Of a stretch of DNA of 51,150 nucleotides, positions 1 to 51,150 are shown piece after piece. The stretch is taken from sequence record PX930853.1; one strand, given 5' to 3'. This DNA is from a phage. The notes beneath the pieces were generated by a model. It was not told the origin of the DNA. It worked only from the letters and a program-made list of their open reading frames with translations, and did no database searches. The stretch's first letter is position 1. Each line of letters begins with the position of its first letter. A program made the translations under genes and the position numbers.

Positions 1-55
1 AGAAAGAAAACTCTACAAGCCCGAATCACTGCTATAAAACTCCGCTAGTATTACC
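1..55. repeat. 55-bp end overlap identical to 51096..51150 (circular-assembly overlap or short terminal repeat); carries last 37 nt of primase CDS
   Basis: Direct comparison of window ends: bases 1-55 equal bases 51096-51150. Confidence 0.9.
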
Positions 56-78: not shown

Positions 79-110
79 GCATTTGAAAATGCTATTATCT
101 GCATTGTCAT

Positions 111-128
111 TAGCAAAAAGTGCTATTT
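111..128 (-). promoter_or_regulatory. partial/degenerate copy of conserved intergenic box
   Basis: TAGCAAAAAGTGCTATTT resembles reverse complement of AATAGCACTTTTTG(T/C)TAAAAC box. Confidence 0.25.
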
Positions 129-143
129 AGGAGGATTTTACAA

Positions 144-4919: not shown

Positions 4920-5975
4920 TCATAGATACTGCCTGAATTGAGCACGAACCCAATCAGGAGTATCAAGATCAATTTCTGGTTGCCCGTTTGCATACGAAGG
5001 CCATTCATCTAACTGTTGGCAAACGTTGAACTTGTTGATCACGCTCATGTACTGGATACGACCGATCTTCAATTGCTCAATGTTCATGCGGAATGCGAGC
5101 GGCAAGTAAGGCTCTTTCTTCTCTTGAGCAAGCAATCTCACAATTACTGGCCTTTCCTCGTCTGGATACGCCTTTTTAAATAAATCATGCTGCAAAGCCA
5201 TTTTGAGATAATACCCGTGATTGTAAGCCAGGCGCTGGAAGTCAACCGGATTTGCGCTAACCGTTGTTTTATAGTCAGTGATAATCACAGCTTCTGGATA
5301 GATGACTTCTTCATAAATCGGTCGGCCTTTTTCGTCGTAACCGTTAATGATTGTGGCCTTTACATCCTTGTTTACGTCAACGTGATCAAGGCGCACTTTA
5401 ACTTTTACGCCATTGATGATCCCGAATATTGACATTTCACGCTGCGCGGTTGGGCTGTTCATGCAAGCGTTATGCTCCGGTATGGCCTCAAGTACGCGCC
5501 GCATCGCTACACAGGCATCATAATCTTTAGCGTCTATTAACTGCACTCCGTCCGCTGCGGCCTGGCATTCTGCCATCATTTCGATAAGCCACCACACATT
5601 GAGATCCTCGCCGCACTTGTACAGCATTTCCAGTAATTCAGGGTATTGTTTACCCGTCGTACCTTTCAGTCCAAAAGATTTCAGCTTTGATGCTAACGCC
5701 GTTTGACTAGTGATCAGATCTTTAAAATCATCCTGCGACGGTGCGCGGCGATATGTTTTTTCGAATAACTCCTTGCTTTCAAAATTGGTATGCGACTGCG
5801 TACCGAAAACAAGTGCCTTAGTTTCCTGGCGAGGCTTGTACTTCCAGTACGCCGGGCAAGTGCTGTAAATCTCCGCCAGGCTGGAACCGCTGACGTATTC
5901 AGCCGTCCACGCGTTAGGATCATGATAAAGCTCATTGCTCATTTCTTCGCTAGTATAGGCGTTAAAATCACTCAT
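4920..5975 (-). CDS. recombination exonuclease, PD-(D/E)XK type (RecE/exonuclease VIII-like), putative
   Basis: 351-aa ORF with GAGGAG RBS; D...ITDYKTT nuclease-like motif; first gene of exo-erf-ssb module. Confidence 0.6.
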   Translation of the reverse strand: MSDFNAYTSEEMSNELYHDPNAWTAEYVSGSSLAEIYSTCPAYWKYKPRQETKALVFGTQSHTNFESKELFEKTYRRAPSQDDFKDLITSQTALASKLKSFGLKGTTGKQYPELLEMLYKCGEDLNVWWLIEMMAECQAAADGVQLIDAKDYDACVAMRRVLEAIPEHNACMNSPTAQREMSIFGIINGVKVKVRLDHVDVNKDVKATIINGYDEKGRPIYEEVIYPEAVIITDYKTTVSANPVDFQRLAYNHGYYLKMALQHDLFKKAYPDEERPVIVRLLAQEKKEPYLPLAFRMNIEQLKIGRIQYMSVINKFNVCQQLDEWPSYANGQPEIDLDTPDWVRAQFRQYL

Positions 5976-6164
5976 CTTTAATGCTCCTCGTTGCTTTGTG
6001 TGTGCATTGTAGCCATTTGGTTGATTTAGTCAATAGTTGTTTTGTTTTTTTTCTGTTTTCTAAACGTTCTCAGATGGCAATAAAACAAATTTGACGAGTA
6101 AGTTAATGATTAATATGTGTTATTTTTCTTGTTCCTCTGTTCTCTCAGATACGCCGGATTATAT

Positions 6165-6335
6165 ACATACACATGAATGATGGCACATACAGATACACAG
6201 AAAGAAAAATCACCACAAACAACCAAAACCACAAGAAACACAGATAACAAGAAAAAACAAATATACATACATAAATAAATAAACTATTGATTTTATATGT
6301 ATATATCTATTTTATTAATTATTTATTGTTCTTAT
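6165..6335. repeat. AC/AT-rich non-coding repeat, copy A (homologous to 35615..35775)
   Basis: Shared blocks AGATACACA, A(C)CA(A)GATAACAA, ATACATA(C/T)ATAAATAAATAA in same order and orientation in both copies. Confidence 0.6.
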
Positions 6336-6404
6336 GTTGGCTAAAATTTGTGCTAAATTTACGCCGTCTTAATTCCGATAACACCGGAAAACAAAAAATA
6401 ACAA

Positions 6405-6424
6405 GTAGCACTTTTTGCTAAACG
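6405..6424 (+). promoter_or_regulatory. conserved intergenic box (TTGCTA variant), ~55 bp upstream of lipoprotein gene
   Basis: AGTAGCACTTTTTGCTAAAC; TATAGT hexamer ~21 nt downstream. Confidence 0.35.
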
Positions 6425-6477
6425 CGCTCCTTAAAATCGTGTATAGTTGAACCAACAACAACAAAGGAGATGAAAAG

Positions 6478-6705
6478 ATGAAAAAGTTAATTGCCGTTTT
6501 AATCGCAGCCGTTGCGCTGACTGGTTGCGCAAATATGCCTAAACGTGAATGTACGGCTATTTATGAAAATAGCGGAATGCAGTATTCAGTTGCTATCTTT
6601 GGGGCAAAACGAGTTGGCGATCGCACTCTTGTTAAGGCTGGCTATCCATTTAATTTTCAGTGGGTAAGCATTGATAACTTTAAAAACGCTGATTGCAGTC
6701 TGTAA
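6478..6705 (+). CDS. lipoprotein, Cor-like superinfection-exclusion candidate
   Basis: Signal peptide with lipobox LTGC (MKKLIAVLIAAVALTGC); AGGAG RBS; isolated plus-strand gene next to tail genes, as for cor in FhuA-dependent phages. Confidence 0.5.
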   Translation: MKKLIAVLIAAVALTGCANMPKRECTAIYENSGMQYSVAIFGAKRVGDRTLVKAGYPFNFQWVSIDNFKNADCSL

Positions 6706-6715
6706 ATAAAAACAA

Positions 6716-6737
6716 AGGGGCAAAAGCCCCTTTTTTA
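6716..6737. terminator. bidirectional rho-independent terminator
   Basis: AGGGGC-AAAA-GCCCCT stem with flanking A-run and T6. Confidence 0.6.
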
Positions 6738-17763: not shown

Positions 17764-17777
17764 CTCAAGATCTCCTT

Positions 17778-17797
17778 ATAGCACTTTTTGTTAAAAG
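17778..17797 (+). promoter_or_regulatory. conserved intergenic box, oriented opposite to flanking late genes
   Basis: ATAGCACTTTTTGTTAAAAG; TAGATT hexamer ~22 nt downstream; faces the 3' end of the major tail gene. Confidence 0.3.
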
Positions 17798-17837
17798 TGG
17801 AATTGATTTATTTGATAGATTGATTTTACAGGAATGA

Positions 17838-21528: not shown

Positions 21529-21529
21529 T

Positions 21530-21550
21530 GATAGCACTTTTTGTTAAACG
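21530..21550 (+). promoter_or_regulatory. conserved intergenic box, oriented opposite to flanking late genes
   Basis: GATAGCACTTTTTGTTAAACG between decoration-like gene stop and capsid gene start. Confidence 0.3.
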
Positions 21551-21573
21551 TGCAATGTTTTTTATGCTACTAG

Positions 21574-24054: not shown

Positions 24055-24810
24055 TTAACTGTTCCAATCTGGTATGGCCCAACAACGACAACCGAAAGGC
24101 TCACCAGGAAAATCATGTTCAGAATCTAGCGCAATGCGCTTACCTTCCCATTGTACATGCTGCAATCGCTCTCTGTCATCAAGCATACCATGCCAAAAAT
24201 AATGAGTTACTTTTGCATCATACAGACGCTGGCGCATGAGTCTACTATTCCAAGCGCCTATGATGTTTTCCGCCCTGGTCTTACCCCAAGAGCTATAAAC
24301 TGCGAACCTCTTACCAGCCAATTCATTAACCTGACTATCTCTCATTCCGCGAAAGTTTGCCGATCTGATATTGGTTGACCAGTCAGACACAATGTTTCCA
24401 AATAGTTTTTGAAGAGATGCGATCGTCATGTCATGCCATTGACCGTATAGCGTCATATACCAACTCTCATTCGCATTGGCCCCAATAGCCATAAGGATGA
24501 TAACGGCGGAATTTGACTTGCCTCCCGATGATTTCGCTACGTTAATAAATTGCTTTGCGTTGAATTTATAAACAGCAAGGCCGATAACCGGAAGTGATGC
24601 GGCGATGCCAGCTATTAGCTTTAACGCGAAGCTACTAATCTCATCCTCTGCGGCGTTGATTTCTTCGGTGTCCGCGTCAAATTTCATCCCCTTTGTTTTG
24701 CTGCGCATCAGCACAACAAGATCCCTTATCGCCTCCTGAATTGAGCGGCGCAATTGCCGCTCGCTTGCTTCAGGAAAGCGCCATTGTTTAACGACGCCTT
24801 TCACTATCAT
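24055..24810 (-). CDS. head morphogenesis protein (Mu F / SPP1 gp7-like minor capsid protein)
   Basis: 251-aa ORF directly after portal; conserved C-terminal FGCRCW-type motif. Confidence 0.55.
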   Translation of the reverse strand: MIVKGVVKQWRFPEASERQLRRSIQEAIRDLVVLMRSKTKGMKFDADTEEINAAEDEISSFALKLIAGIAASLPVIGLAVYKFNAKQFINVAKSSGGKSNSAVIILMAIGANANESWYMTLYGQWHDMTIASLQKLFGNIVSDWSTNIRSANFRGMRDSQVNELAGKRFAVYSSWGKTRAENIIGAWNSRLMRQRLYDAKVTHYFWHGMLDDRERLQHVQWEGKRIALDSEHDFPGEPFGCRCWAIPDWNS

Positions 24811-26099
24811 TGATTGCTACCCTCGGTTGTTCCTGGCTCCGGCTCTACGTCCTGCTCAGGTAATTTAATGTTATTTCCGTCCTTTAGTTTAACGTTAGGC
24901 GCAATGGCTCGCAATGTGTCGCGCGCCTCCTCTGTATCCATGAATTGACCGTCAATAGCCTTGCTCAAAGAATCAATATTCTTGTTCAAGATCTCGGCTT
25001 GGTCCTTTTCACTGGGAACGCTTAACGGCGCAAACTGAATACTCCATTCTTCCTCTTGAATCAGGAACGGGATCAGAAATTCAAGGATTGGTTTGTATTC
25101 TTCCTTTCGCTTTCGATCGATCAGCTTGTAGAAGGTTTCAAGCGCCGTGTTTTGGCTCGCGCTAACACCGCCAACGTTCTTGTTTTTGAGGATGATTTCA
25201 TGGATTCCGGAAAGAGATACAATGCGATCCATCTTCTTTTCCAGGAATGAATCGACACCGGAAATATCAGAATTTAAAACATCATATTCCTCATCTTCCG
25301 CATCAATGCCGATCGCACGACCTACGCCACCCTCATCATCAACTTGAGCAAGGCGCAAACGTGCGGCGCTAACACCATCATCATCATCACAAAGATCAGC
25401 AAGACCTTTAGCCTTCCATACCGCCTGTTGCTTACGTCGCAACAATTGAGTTGCTAAGTTTTCGCAGTAGTTGTAATCACAAATAGCCTCAACCAATCGC
25501 TTATTCAGGATTGACTCACCCCAACCATCATTTGATTGACGTCGCTGATTTGGTAGCCGCTCACCGTCGATAATACAGACTCGCGAATAGTGAACCTGAT
25601 ATTCTGGCAAGTCCGCACCAGGTGAAATGGTGTAAATTAATGGCTCACCATATCGCACCTTGCGTGGATTAGTTTCTCGCTTTTCTACGCGAACCTGAAA
25701 GCGATCGTAAACGCGAACATCTTCAAGGATTGCACCAGGCGCTGCAGGTGACTTTAACGACCTGCCATCCTGAACGATTGCCACGATTGCCGCGCCACCA
25801 AAAAGACGCGACCAGCAAAGCGCATCAATGATTTTATCGTTTAGTCGCTTCTCATCCCACAAAGATCTAAAACTCTCCTCATCTTCCACGCCATCAATAT
25901 TAAATCCAGGTGTCACCATTTCTTCTGGAACAACGTCGATAATTCGTTTTGCTAGGCCGTCGAGAATGTAAAAATCAGCGTGCGTGGTGTATTCGAACCC
26001 TTGCATAAAGAAAGGCAACTCCACACGCCCATTGTCCTTGCTACCCTTGAAAATCTCGTTGTATCCATCGGCCTTAACTAGCCTTGTTTTTTCGCTCAT
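24807..26099 (-). CDS. portal protein
   Basis: ~430-aa ORF directly downstream of terminase large subunit; acidic C-terminus; GGAG RBS before ATG 26099. Confidence 0.8.
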   Translation of the reverse strand: MSEKTRLVKADGYNEIFKGSKDNGRVELPFFMQGFEYTTHADFYILDGLAKRIIDVVPEEMVTPGFNIDGVEDEESFRSLWDEKRLNDKIIDALCWSRLFGGAAIVAIVQDGRSLKSPAAPGAILEDVRVYDRFQVRVEKRETNPRKVRYGEPLIYTISPGADLPEYQVHYSRVCIIDGERLPNQRRQSNDGWGESILNKRLVEAICDYNYCENLATQLLRRKQQAVWKAKGLADLCDDDDGVSAARLRLAQVDDEGGVGRAIGIDAEDEEYDVLNSDISGVDSFLEKKMDRIVSLSGIHEIILKNKNVGGVSASQNTALETFYKLIDRKRKEEYKPILEFLIPFLIQEEEWSIQFAPLSVPSEKDQAEILNKNIDSLSKAIDGQFMDTEEARDTLRAIAPNVKLKDGNNIKLPEQDVEPEPGTTEGSNQ

Positions 26100-26140: not shown

Positions 26141-26169
26141 TTGATTATATAACTTTTTAGCAATTAGTG

Positions 26170-27738
26170 CTATTTATTGCGTAGACCTGCCAGCTTTTTC
26201 ATCCTTGCTACCGGATCATCTGCCAAATTCATTTCGACGTTAACAGCATCAACTATATTATCGACAATATCATCATGGGGATGAGAATCATCAAAAGTGA
26301 ATGCTGCAACCTCTGCTAGTATCTCAGGCAGCATGGGGTGATTTTCTGGCAGTGCCACACGTCCGGCCCTCATTACTGGCGCGGCGTCCATTGCTCGCGT
26401 CACCTTGTCATTGCTTCGCTGAACGGGATTTATATCAATCGGGATCTTCTTTTTGGCCCCCTGAATCAAACCCGTGCCGCTGGCCTTATCCTCAATGTGG
26501 ATACGTCGCAAGCTGCCACACTCCTTATTGCGCTTCCAGCACTGGTTAACGAAGGCAATAAAATTTAATTCAAGATCCGGCGCTTCCCACTTTCCGCGAA
26601 TGCCATCAATGAAGTAAACTCGATTCTTATACATCCCCCAATAACAAAAAACCGAATAGTCGTTAAGCTCTCCGGCCTTCTGCGCGGTATCTCCAGTAAT
26701 AAATGTGTATTCAAAGCGATCCGGTTTTGGTAGTGCGCACTTTTCGCCGCTGCCGTAATACTGGAACCACTCTGTTTTAAACACGTTCCCGCCAAGCGCG
26801 ATTGGTTGCTGTTGGTATTGGCTGGCGAACGTGTAAGGATCTGCATTGCGCAATGCAAGCAACTCCTCCGCGCTTTCCTTCGCAGGCCAAAATGAATAAT
26901 GAGCGACGCCATCTATCATCACTGGCTTACTTGACAGCACATCACGATCAAATTCAGGCTTCAACCAATCAGGAAGCGTTTCGCGGTATTCTTTCGTAAC
27001 CAGCGCCGGAATGCTCACGACTTTAAACTCAATACCACCCATCCCGCCATTAAGCATGAACCAGGTGGAATCATTAACGTGTAGTCGCTGTTGCACCATA
27101 ACAATTGGCGTTGTGTCTTTCATTCGACGCGATCGCACTGTGTTTTTTAACCGCATATGAATAGCCTCGCGCTTGACCTTAGAAAGCATATCATCCGGCT
27201 TGTCTGGATCGTCAAGAACCAGCATACCAGTAAAACCATCGTCCATATAGCCGCCACGCAAACCTGTTACCTGGCCGCCAATAGAACGTGAGTTAACTTG
27301 CAATTTAACCTTGCCGCCTTCGGTGACTATCAGATCTTTAGCGCTCGCCTTTGCCAGTTTTCCTGGCCATAGCTCTTGCCACTCATGAGAACCAATAATC
27401 TCCTTTATCCGGTTGCTGTTTTGCTGGACAAGGCCATCACTAAACGAAAGGTTAAGATTTCTCACCTTCCGGCTTTTCAATGACGCGTAGGGTGACATGT
27501 GGATCGAGAAAATCTCAGTCTTGCCGCTACCTGGAGTAATGTTGAAAATCACATTCCGCGACTCTCCATTGATGATCTTCTCTACCTCACTGCACAATAA
27601 GCTAAAATGCCAGTTGCTCTGGAATTTTTGCCCCTGCAATAATTGGAACCAGATTCTGATCATCTTTTCGAATGAATGCTCACTGATTTCTTTAATGGCT
27701 CGCTTTTGCGCAGCCGTCAAATCTTCCCATATGATCAT
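26170..27738 (-). CDS. terminase large subunit
   Basis: 522 aa; Walker A-like PGSGKTE, nuclease-type C-terminal acidic residues; start overlaps small-subunit stop. Confidence 0.85.
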   Translation of the reverse strand: MIIWEDLTAAQKRAIKEISEHSFEKMIRIWFQLLQGQKFQSNWHFSLLCSEVEKIINGESRNVIFNITPGSGKTEIFSIHMSPYASLKSRKVRNLNLSFSDGLVQQNSNRIKEIIGSHEWQELWPGKLAKASAKDLIVTEGGKVKLQVNSRSIGGQVTGLRGGYMDDGFTGMLVLDDPDKPDDMLSKVKREAIHMRLKNTVRSRRMKDTTPIVMVQQRLHVNDSTWFMLNGGMGGIEFKVVSIPALVTKEYRETLPDWLKPEFDRDVLSSKPVMIDGVAHYSFWPAKESAEELLALRNADPYTFASQYQQQPIALGGNVFKTEWFQYYGSGEKCALPKPDRFEYTFITGDTAQKAGELNDYSVFCYWGMYKNRVYFIDGIRGKWEAPDLELNFIAFVNQCWKRNKECGSLRRIHIEDKASGTGLIQGAKKKIPIDINPVQRSNDKVTRAMDAAPVMRAGRVALPENHPMLPEILAEVAAFTFDDSHPHDDIVDNIVDAVNVEMNLADDPVARMKKLAGLRNK

Positions 27739-30370: not shown

Positions 30371-30391
30371 GTTTTAACAAAAAGTGCTATT
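30371..30391 (-). promoter_or_regulatory. conserved intergenic box (minus orientation)
   Basis: Reverse complement AATAGCACTTTTTGTTAAAAC; followed by GC dyad AAGGGCA...TGCCCTT and TAAAGT. Confidence 0.4.
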
Positions 30392-30680
30392 AGCTCAGAT
30401 AGTAAAGCTCATCGCGAGCGAAGTCGTCAAAATCTCGCTGTGTCAGCGGTCGATCCTCTCGCGCAGCTTCCTCTATCATGTTGATCAAAAAGTCGCTCAT
30501 CGCTCCTAGTCCACCATCCGGCATATAGCAAGCTGCGAAAGCTCGCGCCCATGAACGAGCATTTTTGAATCCGGCGCGCTTCATTGTGACTGGCGAGTGT
30601 TTAGAGTCGTTCCACTTGTTACACTGCGCAATGTTTTCAAAAGCGTTAACCAGTAGTTTGCGGTAAGTTTTGTTTGCCAT
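30390..30680 (-). CDS. hypothetical early protein (96 aa)
   Basis: ORF track; ATG start. Confidence 0.5.
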   Translation of the reverse strand: MANKTYRKLLVNAFENIAQCNKWNDSKHSPVTMKRAGFKNARSWARAFAACYMPDGGLGAMSDFLINMIEEAAREDRPLTQRDFDDFARDELYYLS

Positions 30681-31665: not shown

Positions 31666-31686
31666 GTTTAGCAATTCGTGCTATTT
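31666..31686 (-). promoter_or_regulatory. degenerate copy of conserved box with GC dyad and TATAAT
   Basis: Minus strand AAATAGCACGAATTGCTAAAC then GCGGGG-TTATCGG-CCCCGC then TATAAT. Confidence 0.3.
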
Positions 31687-32271
31687 AATCTGTGTGTGCT
31701 TCCATTTGACTGCATTGACGATCTCGCTTACAGCCAGTTCCGGCTTGCCGTCCTGCAAGTGGAAGTCATAGTGATGAATTCGATAGTGATAACCGCTCAG
31801 GTCAATGTAGTCTCTCGAATCGCCAGCAAACGTGAAGCCGTCGCGATGCAATCGGCAAATATGCACTTCATGCCCTGCCTTAACCAGCGGATTGATTTCT
31901 TCGGGGAATCCGCCATCACTGATCACAACCGCCAAATCTCGGTACATCTCGTGAATCTCTTCAACCATTCGACGCCCGAAATAGTGATCCCCAAAAACTG
32001 GCTTCATTACATCCTCGCTAATCCAGATCATGAATTGTCGAGGTGACTTGCCGCCTAAGATAACTTGAGGCTTTTCTTTTTGTTCTCGGTCGTTGTACAG
32101 GTCCATAAATTCATCGTATCGGTACACGCCCAGCATGGAAAACGCAATATCGAACATCGGCTGTTTGAATGACGCCTTAACCGCTGGGTAACGATGGCCC
32201 GTTAGGTAAGCTGCAATAGTGTCCTTTCCACAACCAGGCGGCCCATTAAGGATAATAATGTCTCGTTTCAT
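31681..32271 (-). CDS. P-loop kinase, deoxynucleoside monophosphate kinase-like
   Basis: Walker A GPPGCGKDT at N-terminus (GKD-type P-loop); 196 aa. Confidence 0.55.
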   Translation of the reverse strand: MKRDIIILNGPPGCGKDTIAAYLTGHRYPAVKASFKQPMFDIAFSMLGVYRYDEFMDLYNDREQKEKPQVILGGKSPRQFMIWISEDVMKPVFGDHYFGRRMVEEIHEMYRDLAVVISDGGFPEEINPLVKAGHEVHICRLHRDGFTFAGDSRDYIDLSGYHYRIHHYDFHLQDGKPELAVSEIVNAVKWKHTQIK

Positions 32272-32983: not shown

Positions 32984-33005
32984 GTTTTAACAAAAAGTGC
33001 TATTT
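32984..33005 (-). promoter_or_regulatory. conserved intergenic box (minus orientation)
   Basis: Reverse complement AAATAGCACTTTTTGTTAAAAC; GGGCTT...AAGCCC dyad and TATAGT 22 nt after TTGTTA. Confidence 0.4.
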
Positions 33006-33152
33006 CTTAATACATAGCGTGTGAGTGTACGCATAAAACCTGTTGTTGTTCTTGATCTGCTCTCGTGCCTCAATGCAAGATTGCTGGCTATTCATTTCGA
33101 TATGGTCAACGCCGCCATCAATCATAAGAATCAGCAAAATCCAGGTAGCCAT
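33000..33152 (-). CDS. small ORF (50 aa), not in ORF track
   Basis: GAGGTGAGAG RBS then ATG; MATWILLILMIDGGVDHIEMNSQQSCIEAREQIKNNNRFYAYTHTLCIKK. Confidence 0.25.
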   Translation of the reverse strand: MATWILLILMIDGGVDHIEMNSQQSCIEAREQIKNNNRFYAYTHTLCIKK

Positions 33153-34201: not shown

Positions 34202-34223
34202 GTTTTAACAAAAAGTGCTATTT
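34202..34223 (-). promoter_or_regulatory. conserved intergenic box (minus orientation)
   Basis: Reverse complement AAATAGCACTTTTTGTTAAAAC ~80 bp upstream of 33229..34122 start. Confidence 0.4.
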
Positions 34224-34407
34224 AGAATTTCACTTCTTCCACAAGCTCAACCATCTTGTAACCAAGACGATAAGAGTCACCGAACAACAAGATCCCCATA
34301 AATTCATCGTGGCTTATTGACTCTTTGCCAACCGTTCTAAGCTCTCCGTTGTGAATCACAGTATCGCCGATCTTGATTTCTGATTTATGGACTAATTTCG
34401 TTTTCAT
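34222..34407 (-). CDS. hypothetical early protein (61 aa)
   Basis: ORF track. Confidence 0.45.
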   Translation of the reverse strand: MKTKLVHKSEIKIGDTVIHNGELRTVGKESISHDEFMGILLFGDSYRLGYKMVELVEEVKF

Positions 34408-34664: not shown

Positions 34665-34686
34665 GTTTTAACAAAAAGTGCTATTT
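34665..34686 (-). promoter_or_regulatory. conserved intergenic box (minus orientation)
   Basis: Reverse complement AAATAGCACTTTTTGTTAAAAC followed by GCCAGGC-GCAAA-GCCTGGC dyad and CATAAT. Confidence 0.4.
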
Positions 34687-34953
34687 TGTCTCGACGGTCA
34701 TATGTTCTGTCTTCGTGCCTTTGCCGTTGCTTTTCGACACTTCCCAGCTAGTCGTTCCCTTGCAGTTGGTGAAGTAAACAGTGCGACCGTCATAGAATCG
34801 GTAAACAGTGCAACCATCGGCGGTGAATAGCTCCCTTACGCTGTAGTCATCGCCAGGGTTAGCCATCTGCACATTGCCAACATGCGCGCCATCCTCTTTG
34901 CATCCGGTCAGGAATGCCATTGCCACCAAAACACCGATTAACGCCTTTTTCAT
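34681..34953 (-). CDS. lipoprotein (second lipobox protein), function unknown
   Basis: MKKALIGVLVAMAFLTGC signal peptide with lipobox. Confidence 0.6.
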   Translation of the reverse strand: MKKALIGVLVAMAFLTGCKEDGAHVGNVQMANPGDDYSVRELFTADGCTVYRFYDGRTVYFTNCKGTTSWEVSKSNGKGTKTEHMTVETK

Positions 34954-35414: not shown

Positions 35415-35614
35415 TTCTGCCTCCTGGTTGTTAGGTGTGGGCATTATCAATAATGCTATTTAATGTGTCAACTGTTTTTTCTTGTTCCAGCGTGTTTTAT
35501 CAATTTTATATGGTGGCACAATAACAATATGGGCGTTATTTTTCCTTATAAATCAATGTTATCATTGCTTGTTATCGAAGTTTTCTCGCGGAAAGTGCCA
35601 TATAGATATATATG

Positions 35615-35775
35615 CCCCTACATACCCATACACACATATAGATACACAAAAACTATATACCCCCACCAAATACCACAATAACCAAGATAACAAAAGAGAA
35701 TATATAGATACATATAAATAAATAATCCTTATTTTTCAATGTATTATATAGGTATTGTTTGTTATTTTTTGTTAT
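35615..35775. repeat. AC/AT-rich non-coding repeat, copy B (homologous to 6165..6335)
   Basis: Same ordered sequence blocks as copy A; both copies lie in divergent intergenic regions. Confidence 0.6.
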
Positions 35776-35889
35776 CGTATTTTGCGGAAGGTCAACAAAA
35801 GAACAGGTGGGAACGGAACATAACAACCACTGACAGCCAGGCGGAAAAGTGAGGCAAGAGGGGAAGGTTTCACTATCTCCCCTGCAATC

Positions 35890-35985
35890 AATGATTAAAC
35901 GTGATTACTTTCTCATCAAATTTGCAAATGCAATCATCATTTTGACGTGATTTGATTACGAATGATTACTTTTGATTATTTCTAT
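35890..35985. promoter_or_regulatory. phased GATTA(C) repeats and 10-bp palindrome ATTTGCAAAT (candidate operator/origin-like element)
   Basis: Five GATTA(C) units at ~10-11 bp spacing in two clusters; perfect palindrome near 35920. Confidence 0.3.
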
Positions 35986-36010
35986 CACAGTCCTGGCGCT
36001 AACCGTCAAA

Positions 36011-36029
36011 TGGCACTTTTTGTTAAAAC
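36011..36029 (+). promoter_or_regulatory. conserved intergenic box (TGGCAC variant) ~58 bp upstream of first rightward early gene
   Basis: TGGCACTTTTTGTTAAAAC. Confidence 0.4.
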
Positions 36030-36087
36030 TCAGGCCGTCTGATCGGGTACATTGCACACATCAAAACGAACCGCTCAGGAGATAGCA

Positions 36088-37049: not shown

Positions 37050-37313
37050 ATGAAAATTAATGCACCTATTCCAGTTAAGCGCAAAGCACGTTTGCTAAAC
37101 AACGGATGTTACGCCATGCGGCCCGCATTTAAGGATCGCACATTTCCGGTTATCGTTAACGTGTCTCATGTAAGCCGTAGCGGAAACCTGGTATTCGTTA
37201 AAGGTGAAGATCTGACGGCGCTTGGATTCTATGGCGGTGTTCACGGCGAACCGCTCGGATTCTGGCTTGTGGATCCGCTAACTGGAGAGCGTGAAATCGA
37301 ATTCCTGGACTAA
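37050..37313 (+). CDS. hypothetical early protein (87 aa)
   Basis: AAGGAG RBS. Confidence 0.5.
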   Translation: MKINAPIPVKRKARLLNNGCYAMRPAFKDRTFPVIVNVSHVSRSGNLVFVKGEDLTALGFYGGVHGEPLGFWLVDPLTGEREIEFLD

Positions 37314-37333
37314 ATAGCACTTTTTGTTAAAAA
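37313..37333 (+). promoter_or_regulatory. conserved intergenic box
   Basis: AATAGCACTTTTTGTTAAAAC overlapping upstream TAA stop; ~55 bp before ATG 37389. Confidence 0.4.
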
Positions 37334-39330: not shown

Positions 39331-40006
39331 AGTTGCTTACTCAATGTTTGATGGATCTGGAATCATGCTGCTTGAATATGCGAAGGCTGGCTATCAATGC
39401 TATTGCTTTAACGCTGATGAAGGCAATCACGGCGAATATTTCATCAAGATGAAACATGAAAATCTGCATTATGTGAATATGTGGATTGATGAAAATTTCA
39501 TTGAAAGAATCAGTAAGATTGGTATTCCAAAACCAGATATTGTATTTGGATTTCCAGACTGCACCATGTTTGCCCAATCAGGAATCAAGCACGTGCGAAG
39601 CGATGATGATATTCAGGTTGCGCTCAAAAATGCAATCATGGTTGAAACTGTCGGGAATCATTTCGGTGTCCCCTGGATGGCTGAGAATCCTGTAGGCCGA
39701 CTATCAACGCTATGGCGAAAGCCTGATTTTTATTTCAATCCTCGCGATTTTGGTAACTACCTGGACGAATCCGATGGATCTTTTCACCCCAAGATGCCGC
39801 TAAAGGATGGCTACACAAAAAGGACTGCTATCTGGTGCGGCAACGGATTTACAGAACCCGAACGCAAGCCGTTATCCAATGATGATGGCGTAATGTTCTT
39901 TTGGGGTTGGAAGTTTTTAGGCGGTAAGTCTGCCAGAACAAAGCAACTACGCTCCCTCACTCCGCGCGGCTTTGCTCGCGCCGTCTTTGAGTCAAACTCA
40001 AAATAG
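39320..40006 (+). CDS. putative SAM-dependent DNA methyltransferase (C5-cytosine-like motifs, atypical)
   Basis: FDGSG (motif I-like), FGFPDC (PC-like motif IV with inserted Asp), AENPVG (ENV-like); start overlaps 3' end of HNH gene. Confidence 0.4.
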   Translation: MGNKVAYSMFDGSGIMLLEYAKAGYQCYCFNADEGNHGEYFIKMKHENLHYVNMWIDENFIERISKIGIPKPDIVFGFPDCTMFAQSGIKHVRSDDDIQVALKNAIMVETVGNHFGVPWMAENPVGRLSTLWRKPDFYFNPRDFGNYLDESDGSFHPKMPLKDGYTKRTAIWCGNGFTEPERKPLSNDDGVMFFWGWKFLGGKSARTKQLRSLTPRGFARAVFESNSK

Positions 40007-40022
40007 CACTTTTTGTTAAAAG
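40002..40022 (+). promoter_or_regulatory. conserved intergenic box
   Basis: AATAGCACTTTTTGTTAAAAG then CCAGGT-GTAAAAA-ACCTGG dyad then CATAAT; ~50 bp before ATG 40076. Confidence 0.4.
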
Positions 40023-40462: not shown

Positions 40463-40680
40463 TAAACAGTGAAAACCGTTACAAAGTAACGCATTCTACC
40501 ACAAAGACTTTCAAGCCTGGCGATATAGTCAGGCCCATCAAAAAAACGGCGGTAGGTTGGCTGATTGGTTTTTCATATCATAAGGCGCTTTACTTTACGT
40601 TTAAGGATGGGATTACAGGAGAATGCTACAGCGACCGCCAGCCTGATCGACTTCTGGTTGCAATAGAGCGGATCAAATAG
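40459..40680 (+). CDS. hypothetical early protein (73 aa)
   Basis: ORF track; overlapping stop-start. Confidence 0.45.
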   Translation: MINSENRYKVTHSTTKTFKPGDIVRPIKKTAVGWLIGFSYHKALYFTFKDGITGECYSDRQPDRLLVAIERIK

Positions 40681-40696
40681 CACTTTTTGACAAAAC
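40676..40696 (+). promoter_or_regulatory. conserved intergenic box (TTGACA variant)
   Basis: AATAGCACTTTTTGACAAAAC then GGGCCGT...ACGGCCC dyad containing TAAAAT. Confidence 0.4.
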
Positions 40697-40748: not shown

Positions 40749-42329
40749 ATGTTTTCATTAGAAACGAACAAATTAACTCCACAGCAAATAATCGCTATGG
40801 CTGAAAGCCAGAACCTTTCACCAGTTCGCGTATCAATTCAGGCTAACGGCTATCGCCAGTCGTCCAGCTTTTGGGGCGACGTGAAGGATGTAAATAGCGG
40901 TCACGATCGCTACCCCGTAATTTCTCTTGGTAATGATATTGATGTTGTCGGAAAGTTATCACGCAGTATTGCGCGATCCGTTCAATTCCCTGAATCATCG
41001 GCTTACATGCACTTTATCGGCTGCATTTCTGCCGCCATGCTTGGACGCTTTACGGTTGACTATCACGGGACCGATCAGCCGACTGCGATTTACGTCGTTA
41101 CAAGCCAGCCGCCGTCAACTGGTAAATCTGCGATCAACAGTATGGCTATTGCTCCGATGATTGCGGAAGTTGAGAAGATCAACGAGCAACGCCGCAAGGA
41201 AAGAAAGAAAATACAGGCAAAGTTGGCAGGTCTTGCAAAGGAGATGAAAAGCGAAAGATCAGGCGCTGATATGGAATCTCTATACCAGGAAAAAGAGGAT
41301 CTGGAAGAGAAGCTGGAAAAGATGTGTGATATAACTTTCCCTGTTTCAGATACAACTCCAGAAGGCTTGGCAAAAATCAACAACAAGCAAGGTAACTTTG
41401 CCGTAATATCTGACGAAGCAACAAGTATTAACAGTCTGTTAGGCTTGACCTATGCCAATAGCGAAAGGAAGACTAACAGTGAGCTAGTGCTTAAGGCGTG
41501 GGATAATGGTCACGTATCAATTGCCCGTGCTAATGCTGACAATAACATGAGTTTTCGCGCACTTGGATGTATGAGCGTTATAGCCCAGGATGAAACGATA
41601 AGCGGAATCATGGACGCTGGATCGCGCGGTATCGGTGTGAGTGAGCGCTTTTTGTTGGTCCGTGAGGAATCATTCTTAGGCCGTCGCTCATTCATTGATG
41701 AAAATGGTGATTCTACCTATGAGGCGGTGGATCCTGAATTGAAGGCCCAATATTATCAATTGGTGCATAACATCATGAGCGAATCAAATATATCGCTGAA
41801 AATAAGCCGTTCAGCTATGCGAGTGCTCAACATTGCTCGCCAGGATATGGAACCGCATCTTGCAGACGGCGGAAAGTATTCTCATACAATGTTACGCGGT
41901 GCGCTGGGTAAAATGGATAAACAGGTGATCAGGCTTGCTTCCGTCCTGCATGTTATCCGCAACTGGTTTAATCCTGCTGGATACCCGCAGAAGTCGAAAG
42001 AGATCGACGTGGAAACAATGCAAGAGGCGCTGATCATGTTTCAGGAATTGAGCAAAACATACATTAGCGCCGCCAATGCTTCTGGTTATGCTGGTGATGA
42101 TGCTGAAATGGGCAAATTGATTGAATTGATCACTAGACACGGCAAGGCTAATAAAGGGATTCTGAATATTCGCGCCCTGTACGAATCAGCGAGAAAGGTA
42201 AAACCTTTCGTTGGTCAGGCTGGCGTAATGAAGAGGATAGAAGGGCACTTGCTGCCAATGCTGGAAGAAAGAAATTATGTTTGTGTGATTAATGGTGTTA
42301 TTTTTGTCAATCCAATACTGCTGGGATGA
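40749..42329 (+). CDS. large early protein with P-loop NTPase-like motifs, function unknown
   Basis: 526 aa; Walker A-like PPSTGKSA, Walker B-like FAVISDEAT, central charged coiled coil; AAAGGAG RBS. Confidence 0.55.
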   Translation: MFSLETNKLTPQQIIAMAESQNLSPVRVSIQANGYRQSSSFWGDVKDVNSGHDRYPVISLGNDIDVVGKLSRSIARSVQFPESSAYMHFIGCISAAMLGRFTVDYHGTDQPTAIYVVTSQPPSTGKSAINSMAIAPMIAEVEKINEQRRKERKKIQAKLAGLAKEMKSERSGADMESLYQEKEDLEEKLEKMCDITFPVSDTTPEGLAKINNKQGNFAVISDEATSINSLLGLTYANSERKTNSELVLKAWDNGHVSIARANADNNMSFRALGCMSVIAQDETISGIMDAGSRGIGVSERFLLVREESFLGRRSFIDENGDSTYEAVDPELKAQYYQLVHNIMSESNISLKISRSAMRVLNIARQDMEPHLADGGKYSHTMLRGALGKMDKQVIRLASVLHVIRNWFNPAGYPQKSKEIDVETMQEALIMFQELSKTYISAANASGYAGDDAEMGKLIELITRHGKANKGILNIRALYESARKVKPFVGQAGVMKRIEGHLLPMLEERNYVCVINGVIFVNPILLG

Positions 42330-42721: not shown

Positions 42722-42837
42722 GGATTTTATTCATGCTTTACTTACGCTACTTTATTCAGATATGCGCGCTTTTAGCACCACTGAACATGTTTTATGCAAT
42801 GATGATGGTGTATTACTGGTTACGGTAAAGCGTATGG

Positions 42838-42858
42838 AATAGCATTTTTTGTTAAAAC
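42838..42858 (+). promoter_or_regulatory. conserved intergenic box
   Basis: AATAGCATTTTTTGTTAAAAC then CCCGGC...GTCGGG dyad then TATATT. Confidence 0.4.
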
Positions 42859-46080: not shown

Positions 46081-46101
46081 GTTTTAACAAAAAGTGCTAT
46101 T
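46081..46101 (-). promoter_or_regulatory. conserved intergenic box (minus orientation)
   Basis: Reverse complement AATAGCACTTTTTGTTAAAAC then GCCCGGC...GTCGGGC dyad then CATAAT. Confidence 0.4.
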
Positions 46102-46357
46102 AGTGGTTCATTCCGTGCTGAAAATTCCACGAATCGACAAACTCTTGCATGTCATTTCTGATTTGTTCGTGCCATTTTTCAAGCGGGAGTTTTCTTGTCT
46201 CCTCAAAGCTCATATCTAATGCGCTTGAAAATTCCCACGGATCGCAATCAATCATCTTTTTCACGTTAGGATTTTTATCAAGTGCATCGCACACCATAGC
46301 GCGAAATAACAACCATTCGCCAGTTTCATTTAAATAAAAGCTTCTCTCTTTTTTCAT
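46100..46357 (-). CDS. hypothetical protein (85 aa)
   Basis: ORF track. Confidence 0.5.
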   Translation of the reverse strand: MKKERSFYLNETGEWLLFRAMVCDALDKNPNVKKMIDCDPWEFSSALDMSFEETRKLPLEKWHEQIRNDMQEFVDSWNFQHGMNH

Positions 46358-47151: not shown

Positions 47152-47173
47152 GTTTTAACAAAAAGTGCTATTT
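47152..47173 (-). promoter_or_regulatory. conserved intergenic box (minus orientation) upstream of dam
   Basis: Reverse complement AAATAGCACTTTTTGTTAAAAC then TGGCGC...GCGCCA dyad then ATAATT. Confidence 0.4.
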
Positions 47174-47587
47174 AAGCATGTATTCAATAGCCAACTTAAA
47201 CTGATTGAATCCGTAGGCTACCGCAGCGAATCCTCCTAAGCTGCGAACGCGACGCAAAAAAGCCTTTTGTTCATCGCTGACTGGTGATGCTTTCCCCTTG
47301 CCTGATTTATTCACTCGTTTGATCTCAATCGCTGCAAAGGGGTATTTTCCGTTTAAACCAATCAGAATGATGAAATCGCTTACTCCCTTAACCAAGCCGG
47401 ACTGCTGATCAATCATCGCCGTTGCTTTAGACTTCTCATTCTCGTTTACCGTATGCCACGCCAGCAAATAAGGATGAGCATAAGTCAACCACTGAAAACT
47501 ATCTATCTGGTGATTAACTTCCCTTCTCGTGTCGGTTGGATCCCTTTCGTAAAACTCAAGATAATCGCCTTTATCAGTTATAGCCAT
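47168..47587 (-). CDS. VRR-NUC domain nuclease (PD-(D/E)XK), putative
   Basis: GVSDFIILIG...AAIEIKR motif pattern; start overlaps helicase stop. Confidence 0.55.
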   Translation of the reverse strand: MAITDKGDYLEFYERDPTDTRREVNHQIDSFQWLTYAHPYLLAWHTVNENEKSKATAMIDQQSGLVKGVSDFIILIGLNGKYPFAAIEIKRVNKSGKGKASPVSDEQKAFLRRVRSLGGFAAVAYGFNQFKLAIEYMLK

Positions 47588-49584: not shown

Positions 49585-49640
49585 CTTAAACCTTTAAAAA
49601 ATGCCATTTTGAGTATATAATAGACTCATTACAATAAACT

Positions 49641-49660
49641 GTTTTAACAAAAAATGCTAT
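49641..49660 (-). promoter_or_regulatory. conserved intergenic box (variant) upstream of helicase gene
   Basis: Reverse complement ATAGCATTTTTTGTTAAAAC; TATTAT 22 nt after TTGTTA. Confidence 0.4.
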
Positions 49661-49671
49661 GAGGTGACTAG

Positions 49672-50155: not shown

Positions 50156-50190
50156 GCCCAGCGAAATGATAATATTTGCTGGGCTTTTTT
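50156..50190 (+). terminator. rho-independent terminator
   Basis: GCCCAGC...GCTGGGC stem followed by T6. Confidence 0.7.
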
Positions 50191-50202
50191 ATTGAGGTTG
50201 CT

Positions 50203-51132: not shown

Positions 51133-51150
51133 AACTCCGCTAGTATTACC
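51096..51150. repeat. 55-bp end overlap identical to 1..55
   Basis: Direct comparison of window ends. Confidence 0.9.

What the first reader, a model, noticed from the sequence alone, without database searches (positions are those of the whole stretch)
6165..6335. Two homologous ~170-bp AC/AT-rich non-coding regions at both divergent-transcription points
Region 6165-6335 and region 35615-35775 share the same ordered sequence blocks in the same orientation. Each lies in one of the two largest non-coding gaps (about 5976-6477 and 35415-36087), and each gap separates divergently transcribed gene groups. A duplicated non-coding module at both hubs suggests a shared function such as an origin, a host-factor binding array, a divergent promoter cassette, or a non-coding RNA.
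Basis: seen in the sequence. Interest (0 to 1): 0.65.

Follow-up and report, generated by a model that had tools for sequence, protein, structure and literature searches.

The report
Paired origin-like modules in T1-like phage
The two look-alike non-coding stretches are real, about 290 bp each, conserved across the whole T1-like phage family, and built like replication origins (the easiest-to-melt DNA in the genome flanked by repeated protein-binding motifs), which gives a testable candidate for the still unmapped T1 origin.

Summary
The window is a complete Warwickvirus (Drexlerviridae, Tempevirinae) genome.

- **Paralogy.** 6114-6407 and 35566-35825 are paralogous ~290-bp modules. A profile built only from recE-upstream modules of other phages finds the second copy at E=1e-20, and nothing else on the forward strand of the genome.
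- **Architecture.** Each module runs: left arm of TGTTNNC repeats, GC-rich box (TTTACGCCGGAT-like), ~100-nt A+C-rich tract, ~80-bp AT-rich imperfect palindrome, GC-rich box, inverted right arm.
- **Stability.** The two AT cores are the two least stable 80-bp stretches in this genome. The same holds in T1, TLS, Ec_L1 and AAS23.
- **Shared lineage-specific repeats.** In Ec_L1, 14 of 15 genomic ATCCTCCG copies flank the two AT cores. In T1, all 6 TGTTACA copies lie in the two gaps.
- **Divergent transcription is not required.** TLS, Ec_L1 and AAS23 carry module A between co-directional genes.
- **Not pac.** The mapped TLS pac site lies ~190 nt outside module B.
- **Not RNA or protein.** No Rfam family matches and no ORF is conserved.
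- **Candidate initiator.** The phage's DUF3987 helicase models as an MCM-like AAA+ protein with a C-terminal winged helix, like the self-loading initiator-helicases of SaPIs.

Best reading: a pair of replication-origin(-like) sites, as in SPP1 oriL/oriR. This is inferred, not shown (confidence ~0.55). The main rival is a regulator-binding hub for early promoters.

The parts
6114..6407 (+). Module A, full extent (recE-upstream origin-like module)
   Evidence: nhmmer hit E 4e-52 to the Tempevirinae module profile. Architecture read from the 26-sequence alignment.
6118..6144 (+). Module A left arm: TGTTATTTTTCTTGTTCCTCTGTTCTC (three TGTT-type repeats)
   Evidence: 21 of 27 bases complementary to the right arm; 4 of 500 shuffles reach the score. 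The block is conserved in all Tempevirinae copies.
6150..6161 (+). Left GC-rich box TACGCCGGATTA (family consensus TTTACGCCGGAT)
   Evidence: Direct repeat of 6360-6371, spacing 210 (D7). Conserved column block. The exact 12-mer TTTACGCCGGAT occurs only in the two gaps of Ec_L1, where the related TTTACGGAGGAT is the dominant iteron.
6162..6262 (+). A+C-rich, G/T-poor tract. Composition is conserved, sequence is variable. Contains the conserved box GAAACACAGATAACAAG at 6235-6251.
   Evidence: Top A+C window of the genome, 0.90 over 60 nt. A+C richness (0.73-0.90) is kept at this position in the Tempevirinae and TLS-like loci but not in T1-like ones. Excess identity at even lags, i.e. purine-pyrimidine alternation.
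6255..6334 (.). AT-rich core of module A: least stable 80 bp of the genome, with imperfect palindrome arms 6249-6274 / 6291-6316
   Evidence: Nearest-neighbour dG -77.2 against genome mean -108.9, sd 6.0. GC 8%. Inverted repeat I1. Central hairpin in the DNA fold.
6360..6371 (+). Right GC-rich box TACGCCGTCTTA
   Evidence: Direct repeat of 6150-6161. Conserved TTTACGCCG block.
6377..6403 (-). Module A right arm, inverted copy of the left arm (reverse complement TGTTATTTTTTGTTTTCCGGTGTTATC)
6006..6033 (-). Sigma-70-like promoter for recE-erf-ssb (TTGACT-16-TACAAT), outside the module
   Evidence: TAGTCAATA and the TAnnAT hexamer are conserved in the alignment.
35566..35825 (+). Module B (early-region origin-like module). 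With its left arm it extends to about 35533-35833.
   Evidence: nhmmer E 1e-20 with a profile containing no module-B sequences. Alignment.
35533..35595 (+). Module B left arm (GTTATTTTTCC...TGTTATC..CTTGTTATCG) plus GC-rich box TTTTCTCGCGGAAAG (35581-35595). An extra CTTGTTCC copy lies at 35481-35488.
   Evidence: TTGTTAT occurs 8 times in the two gaps out of 21 in the genome, p 1e-8.
35615..35700 (+). A+C-rich tract of module B, with conserved box AACCAAGATAACAAAAG at 35680-35696
   Evidence: Second highest A+C window of the genome (0.83); 44-nt G-free run 35642-35685.
35687..35766 (.). AT-rich core of module B: second least stable 80 bp of the genome
   Evidence: dG -81.2; the third-ranked window in the genome is only -88.8. 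Central hairpin.
35779..35833 (-). Right GC-rich box ATTTTGCGGAAGG (35779-35791) and inverted right arm (35800-35833; reverse complement ..TTGTTATGTTCCGTTCC..)
   Evidence: The arm pairing is weak on its own (42 of 500 shuffles reach it) and is supported mainly by family conservation.
35883..35981 (.). TGATTA(C)/AATCA repeat array. Found in gap B only and not part of the module. Probable pac region.
   Evidence: Direct repeats D1 and D3. TGATTA counts are 1 in gap A and 5 in gap B. The T1 and TLS records start inside the equivalent array. The TLS HindIII site at 5876 agrees with the experimentally mapped pac, 5882 bp from HindIII.
40749..42329 (+). DUF3987 helicase: MCM-like AAA+ domain plus C-terminal winged helix (residues ~450-520). 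Candidate protein that binds the repeats.

Best explanation
The two modules are a pair of paralogous replication-origin(-like) sites of a T1-like phage.

Each consists of a DNA-unwinding element, an ~80-bp AT-rich imperfect palindrome that is the easiest DNA to melt in the genome. It is bracketed by short repeats in opposite orientation (TGTTNNC arms and TTTACGCCGGAT-like boxes). A strand-asymmetric A+C-rich tract lies on the recE-proximal side.

Proposed mechanism (inferred):
1. A phage-encoded sequence-specific protein binds the repeats on both sides. The most likely candidate is the MCM-like DUF3987 helicase, through its C-terminal winged helix. The Cro/YdaS-like HTH protein encoded next to the primase may assist.
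2. Negative supercoiling from the adjacent outward-reading promoters helps the AT core to open.
3. The helicase self-loads, and the separate Zn-ribbon/TOPRIM primase starts synthesis by the host polymerase.

Two copies would give two initiation sites. Alternatively, as proposed for SPP1 oriL/oriR, one copy initiates and the other is a protein-bound site that stalls forks and feeds the recE-erf-ssb recombination-dependent pathway encoded right next to module A.

Shown here: the paralogy, the architecture, family-wide conservation, the extreme instability of the core, the shared lineage-specific repeats, and the helicase fold. Not shown: any binding, melting or initiation.
For: 1. **Paralogy at full length.** The profile from module A finds module B at E 1e-20. 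It finds two copies in TLS, and one copy upstream of the helicase in 25 of the 45 IMG/VR loci searched.
2. **Instability.** In five genomes from five genera (window, T1, TLS, Ec_L1, AAS23) the two least stable 80-bp windows genome-wide are exactly these two loci, 4.6-6 sd from the mean, with a clear gap to the third. The AT island lies 248-315 nt upstream of recE in 42 of 43 loci, down to 57% RecE identity.
3. **Repeats shared by both loci and different between genera.**
   - Ec_L1: ATCCTCCG occurs 15 times, 7 and 7 in the two gaps and 1 elsewhere, about 1.6 expected by chance. It includes tandem runs at 10-11-bp spacing, with (+) copies immediately left and (-) copies immediately right of each AT core.
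   - AAS23: ATCTACCGCAAA occurs 5 times, 4 and 1 in the gaps and none elsewhere.
   - T1: TGTTACA, 6 of 6 copies in the gaps, p 2.5e-10.
   - TLS: TGTTCAC, 4 of 8.
   - Window: TTGTTAT, 8 of 21, p 1e-8.
4. **Inverted arms around the core.** Window A 6118-6144 / 6377-6403, conserved across Tempevirinae.
5. **Match to a published origin architecture.** SaPI origins have at least two iterons on each side of an AT-rich centre, pointing in opposite directions, bound by the C-terminal winged helix of a self-loading helicase (PMC9371898).
6. **Helicase fold.** The phage helicase is MCM-like with a C-terminal winged helix. That domain is the fastest-evolving part of the protein.
7. **Precedent for two origins.** SPP1 has two similarly organised origins bound by one protein (PMC6316719).
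8. **Position near replication genes.** In Ec_L1 and AAS23 module A lies directly between the primase gene and recE.
9. **The origin is an open question.** The origin of T1-like phages is unmapped, and the 2024 TLS re-annotation reports finding no iterons.
Against: - There is no experimental evidence of initiation at these sites.
- GC skew shows no switch inside the 29-kb unidirectional gene block between the two modules. The test has low power in a small phage.
- In this window the repeats are short and degenerate, and the module B arm pairing is not significant on its own. The crisp iteron arrays are seen in other genera.
- The modules are not adjacent to the helicase gene here, unlike SaPI origins.
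- The same features would also fit a regulator-binding hub.
- Two different repeat types (TGTTNNC and TTTACGCCGGAT-like) are present, and which protein binds which is unknown.
- The A+C-rich tract has no established role in origins.
Confidence: 0.55

Rival explanations
1. Regulatory hubs. The repeats are operators or enhancer sites for a phage transcription regulator, for example the Cro/YdaS-like HTH protein at 49672-50148. This protein would co-ordinately control the recE-erf-ssb operon and the two early operons, in the manner of lambda OL/OR. The AT-rich core would serve as a bendable or UP-like spacer.
For: - Both modules lie upstream of leftward sigma-70-like promoters.
- In gap B a CTTGTTCC copy lies 10 nt from the -35 element.
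- The right arm of module A abuts the 21-nt promoter-associated repeat.
- An HTH regulator is encoded in the replication cluster.
- Lineage-specific repeats are equally expected for a regulator.
Against: - The repeats do not overlap the -35/-10 hexamers. They lie 10-85 nt or more upstream, with about 200 bp of AT/AC-rich DNA between the arms.
- An 80-bp core that is the least stable DNA in five genomes is not needed for an operator array.
- Ec_L1 has 7 or more sites per locus, including five tandem copies next to the primase terminator, far from any promoter.
- Module architecture is kept whether or not a rightward promoter exists (TLS).
Confidence: 0.2
2. Architectural DNA. The modules are intrinsically flexible, curved or easily melted AT-rich spacers that bind host nucleoid proteins (IHF, Fis, H-NS). 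They would absorb transcription-generated supercoiling or insulate neighbouring transcription units, with no dedicated phage protein involved.
For: - Extreme AT content and purine-pyrimidine alternation.
- Location behind outward-reading promoters.
- An IHF-like match WATCAANNNNTTR at about 6285-6297 on the - strand, read by eye and not tested statistically.
Against: - This does not explain the repeats that are genus-specific yet shared by both loci.
- It does not explain the conserved ordered blocks, inverted arms and GC-rich boxes.
- No similarity to E. coli DNA was found.
Confidence: 0.1
3. Recombination or fork-processing sites only. The modules are not initiation sites. They are protein-bound barriers or cleavage hot-spots that create the ends used by RecE/Erf/SSB for recombination-dependent, concatemer-forming replication.
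For: - Module A is always immediately upstream of recE-erf-ssb.
- In SPP1, oriR is proposed to act in this way.
- The palindromic AT core could extrude as a cruciform.
Against: - Module B has no such neighbours.
- The inferred self-loading helicase still needs an entry site, and no other candidate with these properties exists in the genome.
- The hairpin z-scores are modest (-3.0 and -1.9).
Confidence: 0.08
4. Non-coding RNA genes or small protein genes. Several GenBank records annotate 'hypothetical proteins' over the module.
For: - Some records place 2-3 small CDSs there.
- A C-rich, G-poor transcript would resemble a Rho-loading or Hfq-binding sequence (my own knowledge).
Against: - No Rfam hit, even at E up to 5.
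- No promoter reads into the module on the + strand.
- ORFs differ in strand, frame and length between copies, and one copy has none of 35 aa or longer.
- Indels are not multiples of three.
Confidence: 0.03
5. Packaging (pac) signals.
For: The T1 and TLS GenBank records start inside gap B, and T1 annotates a 2800-bp terminal repeat from position 1.
Against: - The mapped TLS pac and the T1 record start fall in the AATCA/TGATT array, about 150-200 nt to the right of module B and outside the module.
- That array is absent from gap A.
Confidence: 0.02

Closest known systems
SaPI replication origins with self-loading Rep initiator-helicases (SaPIbov1/Rep2-type MCM-like SF6; also the SCCmec Cch helicase)
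   Same: - An AT-rich centre with at least two short iterons on each side pointing in opposite directions.
- An initiator that is itself a hexameric AAA+ helicase with a C-terminal winged helix, plus a separate or fused primase (PMC9371898).
   Different: - SaPI origins lie immediately downstream of rep and there is one per element. Here there are two copies, 4.7 kb and ~15 kb from the helicase gene.
- Each module carries an extra ~100-nt A+C-rich tract and GC-rich boxes.
- There is no detectable sequence similarity to PDB Rep proteins.
- Binding has not been tested.
Bacillus phage SPP1 oriL / oriR
   Same: - A virulent pac-type siphovirus with two origins of similar organisation (repeats plus an AT-rich DUE).
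- Both origins are bound by the same phage protein.
- The second copy is proposed to stall forks and trigger the switch to recombination-dependent concatemeric replication, using a 5'-3' exonuclease, an SSAP and an SSB (PMC6316719).
- Here module A sits directly next to recE-erf-ssb.
   Different: - SPP1 uses a dedicated origin-binding protein (gp38), a loader and a DnaB-type helicase. The T1-like phages have an MCM-like helicase and no recognisable loader.
- SPP1 oriL lies inside a gene, whereas both modules here are intergenic.
- There is no sequence relationship.
Satellite phage P4 ori and crr (from my own knowledge, not checked here)
   Same: - Two homologous cis elements with TGTTCACC-type iterons, bound by the C-terminal winged helix of a primase-helicase.
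- The TLS arms use TGTTCAC.
- The phage primase carries the same Zn-ribbon Pfam domain, PF08273.
   Different: - P4 alpha is one fused primase, SF3 helicase and origin-binding protein. Here the primase and an MCM-like helicase are separate proteins.
- The iteron resemblance may be coincidence.
- Whether both copies are required in cis is unknown.
Lambda OL/OR operator regions
   Same: Two homologous non-coding control regions at the starts of the early transcription units, and a Cro-like HTH protein encoded by the phage.
   Different: - The repeats do not overlap the promoter hexamers.
- A large, extremely AT-rich core separates the arms.
- The module persists where no divergent promoter exists.

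Membership tests
Iteron-plus-DUE replication origin (self-loading initiator-helicase type, e.g. SaPI ori) | Central AT-rich DNA-unwinding element | tested here: met
   The cores at 6255-6334 and 35687-35766 are the two least stable 80-bp windows of the genome (-77.2 and -81.2, against -108.9 +/- 6.0). The equivalent cores rank the same way in T1, TLS, Ec_L1 and AAS23.
Iteron-plus-DUE replication origin (self-loading initiator-helicase type, e.g. SaPI ori) | [quoted passage not shown] | tested here: met
   - Window module A: arms 6118-6144 / 6377-6403, each with TGTT repeats.
- Conserved across Tempevirinae.
- Very clear in Ec_L1, T1 and AAS23.
- Weak for window module B taken alone (42 of 500 shuffles reach the score).
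Iteron-plus-DUE replication origin (self-loading initiator-helicase type, e.g. SaPI ori) | Element encodes an initiator-helicase with a DNA-binding winged helix | tested here: met
Iteron-plus-DUE replication origin (self-loading initiator-helicase type, e.g. SaPI ori) | Origin lies next to the rep/helicase gene | tested here: not met
   The helicase gene is at 40749-42329, 4.7 kb from module B and ~15 kb from module A across the circular junction. In Ec_L1 and AAS23 module A is adjacent to the primase gene instead.
Iteron-plus-DUE replication origin (self-loading initiator-helicase type, e.g. SaPI ori) | Specific initiator binding, melting, and ability to drive replication | not testable with these tools
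   Needs EMSA or footprinting, KMnO4 probing, plasmid replication assays and marker-frequency analysis.
Dual origins of SPP1 type (oriL/oriR) | Two copies with the same organisation in one genome | tested here: met
   The profile built from module A finds module B at full length. There are two forward-strand copies in each complete genome searched, the window and TLS.
Dual origins of SPP1 type (oriL/oriR) | Both copies bound by the same phage protein | tested here: inconclusive
   Inferred only. The same genus-specific repeats occur at both loci. No binding data exist.
Dual origins of SPP1 type (oriL/oriR) | Origin-binding protein, loader and DnaB-type helicase | tested here: not met
   The replication genes here are a Zn-ribbon primase, an MCM-like DUF3987 helicase and an SNF2-like helicase. 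No DnaB or loader family was detected among the nine proteins of the replication and recombination clusters that were scanned.
Lambda-type operator regions (OL/OR) | Operators overlap the -35/-10 of the controlled promoters | tested here: not met
   The promoter hexamers at 6006-6033 and 35443-35471 lie outside the repeats. The arms are 10-85 nt upstream.
Known RNA families (Rfam 15) | Match to a covariance model at gathering score | tested here: not met
   No hit in the window at gathering threshold. Only chance-level hits at E 0.18-3 appear in the gaps.
pac site of T1-like phages | Coincides with the mapped first packaging cut | tested here: not met
   TLS pac corresponds to record position ~1 (HindIII at 5876; the paper gives 5882 bp). 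That position lies ~190 nt outside module B, in the AATCA array.
MITE / small mobile element | Terminal inverted repeats with target-site duplication outside them, and variable insertion sites | tested here: not met
   The direct repeats lie inside the inverted arms, not outside them. Both copies are syntenic in every genome examined from five or more genera.

The most novel reading that the evidence does not exclude
T1-like phages may use a two-site replication system with division of labour, driven by a bacterial-virus MCM-like helicase.

- One module (B, next to pac and the early promoters) would fire theta replication.
- The other (A, hard-wired upstream of recE-erf-ssb) would act as a protein-bound fork trap or secondary origin that switches the phage to recombination-dependent concatemer synthesis.
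- The conserved strand-asymmetric A+C/G+T tract on one side of the unwinding element would be a composition-coded, not sequence-coded, loading or priming track. It would fix which strand the helicase or primase engages, and therefore the direction of the first fork.
Probability: 0.15. Interest if true: 0.8.

Novelty: new member of a known kind. Interest (0 to 1): 0.58.

Why it matters
T1 is one of the seven classic T phages, yet its origin of replication has not been located in anything I could find. The 2024 TLS re-annotation states explicitly that no iterons were found (PMC11447400).

This analysis gives two precise, family-wide candidate sites of ~290 bp each, a candidate initiator (an MCM-like helicase with a winged helix), and simple experiments to test them.

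If confirmed it would:
- add a Gram-negative lytic-phage example of self-loading MCM-like helicase origins;
- add a second case, after SPP1, of paired origins linked to the theta-to-concatemer switch;
- help the engineering of Drexlerviridae, which are common therapeutic candidates and notorious laboratory contaminants;
- remove the spurious 'hypothetical protein' calls over these regions in many GenBank records.

Tried and rejected
- **GC/AT skew** inside the 29-kb block 6739-35450, which is transcribed in one direction. There is no switch (GC skew -0.07 to -0.20 throughout), so the test says nothing either way.
- **Concerted evolution.** Identity between modules A and B within a genome (~54% full module, 60-73% core) is no higher than between genomes. 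The duplication is therefore old, and the similarity is maintained by constraint rather than by gene conversion.
- **Rfam**, at gathering and permissive thresholds: nothing.
- **Single-strand DNA folding.** Only a modest central hairpin, z -3.0 and -1.9.
- **Small ORFs in the modules.** Not conserved.
- **Similarity to E. coli genomes.** None.
- **Sequence and profile search of the helicase against PDB.** Nothing. Fold comparison was needed.
- **Trinucleotide (DnaA-trio-like) periodicity in the A+C tract.** No lag-3 signal, only even-lag alternation.
- **TTTACGCCGGAT-like boxes in the window.** Only two per module, with look-alikes elsewhere in the genome. Their status as binding sites rests on conservation and on Ec_L1.
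- **DnaA box.** No convincing match, by eye only.
- **Literature.** The Rtp genome paper and the T1 genome paper (Roberts 2004) are not held in the library. Full-text searches found no described origin for Drexlerviridae.
- **Greedy ORF-gap listing** is confounded by spurious ORFs. The claim that these are the two largest gaps rests on the T1 and TLS annotations.
Full report
**What the window is.** The window is a complete phage genome: 51,095 bp plus a 55-bp assembly overlap, with 1-55 identical to 51096-51150. It is 89-97% identical over the gap-A region to coliphages of the genus Warwickvirus (Drexlerviridae, Tempevirinae), relatives of TLS and T1. Gap A (5976-6477) lies between recE (4920-5975, - strand, first gene of recE-erf-ssb) and cor (6478-6705, + strand). 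Gap B (35418-36087) lies between the leftward and rightward early gene blocks.

**Checking the observation.**
- The two stretches align in the same orientation with a local score of 86. Dinucleotide shuffles gave 23.5 +/- 4.0 (max 41). Shuffles that preserve composition in 10-nt blocks gave a maximum of 62. None of 1000 reached the observed score in any control.
- They are the two most A+C-rich 60-nt windows of the genome (0.90 and 0.83). Each is followed at once by one of the two lowest-GC windows (8% and 15%).
- I built a profile HMM only from recE-upstream modules of 25 Tempevirinae sequences, one of them the window's own module A. It hits 6114-6407 (E 4e-52) and 35566-35825 (E 1e-20, nearly full length). 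The only other hit in the window is a weak reverse-strand self-hit from the palindromic centre.
- The same profile finds two copies in TLS, and one copy upstream of the DUF3987 helicase gene in 25 of 45 IMG/VR loci.
- The repeat is therefore real, about 290 bp long, and conserved.

**Anatomy.** Alignments of 26 module A copies and of A plus B from 14 genomes show one ordered plan:
1. A left arm with two or three TGTTNNC repeats (window A: 6118-6144, TGTTATTTTTCTTGTTCCTCTGTTCTC).
2. A GC-rich box (6150-6161; family consensus TTTACGCCGGAT).
3. A short alternating ATATACATAC stretch.
4. A ~100-nt A+C-rich tract. Its sequence drifts but its composition is kept, and it ends in a conserved GAAACAnnGAnAACAA box (6235-6251; 35680-35696).
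5. An ~80-bp AT-rich imperfect palindrome (6255-6334; 35687-35766).
6. A T-rich stretch.
7. A second GC-rich box in direct orientation (6360-6371; spacing 210).
8. A right arm that is the inverted copy of the left arm (6377-6403; 21 of 27 bases; 4 of 500 shuffles reach the score).

In module B the arm pairing is weak on its own, but the blocks align with the family.

By nearest-neighbour energies the two AT cores are the two least stable 80-bp windows of the genome: -77.2 and -81.2 kcal/mol, against a mean of -108.9 and sd of 6.0. The same holds for the equivalent loci in T1, TLS, Ec_L1 and AAS23.

**Conservation and context.**
- The AT island sits 248-315 nt upstream of recE in 42 of 43 loci, spanning 57-100% RecE identity. 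The A+C-rich tract is present in Tempevirinae and Ec_L1 but is weak in T1-like phages.
- The context is not always divergent. In TLS-like phages cor is absent, and module A lies between the tail-gene terminator and the recE promoter. In Ec_L1 and AAS23 it lies between the primase gene and recE, all on one strand.
- The recognisable sigma-70 promoters (6033..6006 and 35471..35443) and the rightward promoters marked by the known 21-nt repeat aaATAGCACnnnTTGnTAAAA (6403-6423 and 36008-36028; PMC11447400) all lie outside the module. This rules out the 'divergent promoter cassette' reading.

**Shared, lineage-specific repeats.** This is the most telling result.
- In Ec_L1 the 8-mer ATCCTCCG occurs 15 times in 51.9 kb: 7 in gap B, 7 in the recE-upstream gap and 1 elsewhere, against about 1.6 expected by chance. 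There are tandem runs at 10-11-bp spacing, a (+) copy just left of each AT core and a (-) copy just right of it.
- In AAS23, ATCTACCGCAAA occurs 5 times: 4 and 1 in the two gaps and none elsewhere.
- In T1 all 6 TGTTACA copies lie in the two gaps (p 2.5e-10). In TLS 4 of 8 TGTTCAC copies do. In the window 8 of 21 TTGTTAT copies do (p 1e-8).
- The window's GC-rich box TTTACGCCGGAT also occurs, exactly, only in the two gaps of Ec_L1. It differs by two bases from the Ec_L1 iteron TTTACGGAGGAT.
- Repeats that differ between genera but are the same at both loci of one genome indicate a co-evolving, phage-encoded, sequence-specific binding protein acting at both modules.

**What it is not.**
- *Not a known RNA.* Rfam gives nothing at gathering threshold and only chance-level hits at E 0.18-3 in the gaps. 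Folding is only modestly better than shuffles.
- *Not protein-coding.* ORFs differ in strand, frame and length between copies.
- *Not host-derived.* There is no match in 5,426 E. coli genomes.
- *Not a recent duplication or gene conversion.* Identity between A and B within a genome equals that between genomes.
- *Not pac.* The TLS paper maps pac 5,882 bp from a HindIII site, and the TLS record has HindIII at 5876, so pac is at record position ~1. That position lies in gap B about 190 nt to the right of module B, inside an AATCA/TGATT repeat array. The T1 record, with its 2,800-bp terminal repeat, starts in the same array. The array is present in the window at 35883-35981 and is absent from gap A.

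**Candidate trans-acting protein.**
- The replication genes are a Zn-ribbon primase (50176-51132), a DUF3987 helicase (40749-42329), an SNF2-like helicase (47587-49584) and a Cro/YdaS-like HTH protein (49672-50148).
- The DUF3987 helicase has no sequence relative in the PDB.
- The winged helix is the most divergent domain between genera: 38-66% identity, against 62-82% for the AAA+ core.

**Comparison with known systems.**
- SaPI origins are described as iterons on both sides of an AT-rich centre, with at least two per side in opposite orientation. They are recognised by the C-terminal winged helix of a self-loading helicase, of which one class is MCM-like (PMC9371898). The architecture found here and the helicase fold match this description. 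The position relative to the helicase gene, the copy number and the extra A+C tract do not.
- SPP1 supplies the precedent for two similarly organised origins bound by one protein. There the second copy is proposed to stall forks and hand over to an exonuclease, SSAP and SSB pathway (PMC6316719). Here module A is fixed next to recE-erf-ssb.
- P4 ori/crr is a further analogue, from memory only.
- Lambda OL/OR is the model for the main rival, but the repeats here do not overlap the promoter hexamers.

**Verdict.**
- The most likely function is a pair of replication-origin(-like) sites, with confidence about 0.55. A regulator-binding hub is the main rival at about 0.2.
- Every mechanistic step (binding, melting, loading) is inferred.
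- I found no description of an origin for T1-like phages in the searchable literature. The TLS re-annotation says that none was found.
- This is a new member of a known kind of element, and it makes an old open question about a classic phage directly testable.

Noticed in passing
window 110-130, 6403-6423, 17776-17804, 21529-21557, 26157-26177, 30371-30393, 31668-31688, 32984-33006, 34202-34224, 34665-34687, 36008-36028, 37312-37332, 40001-40021, 40675-40695, 42837-42857, 46081-46103, 47152-47174, 49641-49663: There are about 18 copies of the 21-nt repeat AAATAGCACTTTTTGTTAAAA, always pointing in the direction of transcription. Each is followed ~22 nt later by a TATAnT-like -10 element. This is the intergenic repeat described for TLS (PMC11447400), whose function is still unknown. 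It looks like a promoter-proximal element for a phage-specific promoter class.
   Followed up: partly
window 35883-35981: An array of TGATTA(C)/AATCA repeats is found only in gap B. The GenBank records of T1 and TLS begin inside the equivalent array, and the experimentally mapped TLS pac falls there. This is the probable pac / small-terminase binding region of this phage.
   Followed up: partly
L051 (IMGVR_UViG_3300045988_032316) 2552-2853, compared with window 35566-35825: A relative has an identical DUF3987 helicase and a 95% identical module A, but its module B is only 55% identical, with different arm repeats (GTTCAC/GTTAAC). Module B and the early region around it are exchanged as a mosaic cassette between phages.
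   Followed up: partly
window 49557-49636 (gap 49585-49671): The third least stable 80-bp window of the genome (-88.8) lies in the short divergent gap between the SNF2-like helicase gene and the HTH-regulator/primase genes.
   Followed up: no
window 40749-42329: The DUF3987 'helicase' of T1-like phages is structurally an MCM-like AAA+ protein with a C-terminal winged helix. It has no sequence-detectable relative in the PDB.
   Followed up: yes
L096/L097 (Ec_L1 50248-50821) and L098 (AAS23 24581-25196): In Eclunavirus and Sauletekiovirus the gene order is rearranged, so the recE-upstream module lies directly downstream of the primase gene. AAS23 annotates two tiny 'hypothetical proteins' inside it, which are probably spurious.
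   Followed up: partly
window 1-55 and 51096-51150: An exact 55-bp duplication at the two ends of the window. This is an assembly overlap of a circularly permuted genome, not a biological terminal repeat.
   Followed up: no
window 6714-6733: A bidirectional intrinsic terminator hairpin (AAAGGGGCAAAAGCCCCTTT) lies between cor (+) and the convergent tail-associated genes (-). Similar GC hairpins recur at 2952, 3900, 7694, 17834 and 20159.
   Followed up: no
GenBank records under (e.g. ON716453, OK272485, OR896819): Several deposited genomes annotate two to four 'hypothetical proteins' across module A. The ORFs are not conserved between copies and are likely over-annotation.
   Followed up: partly
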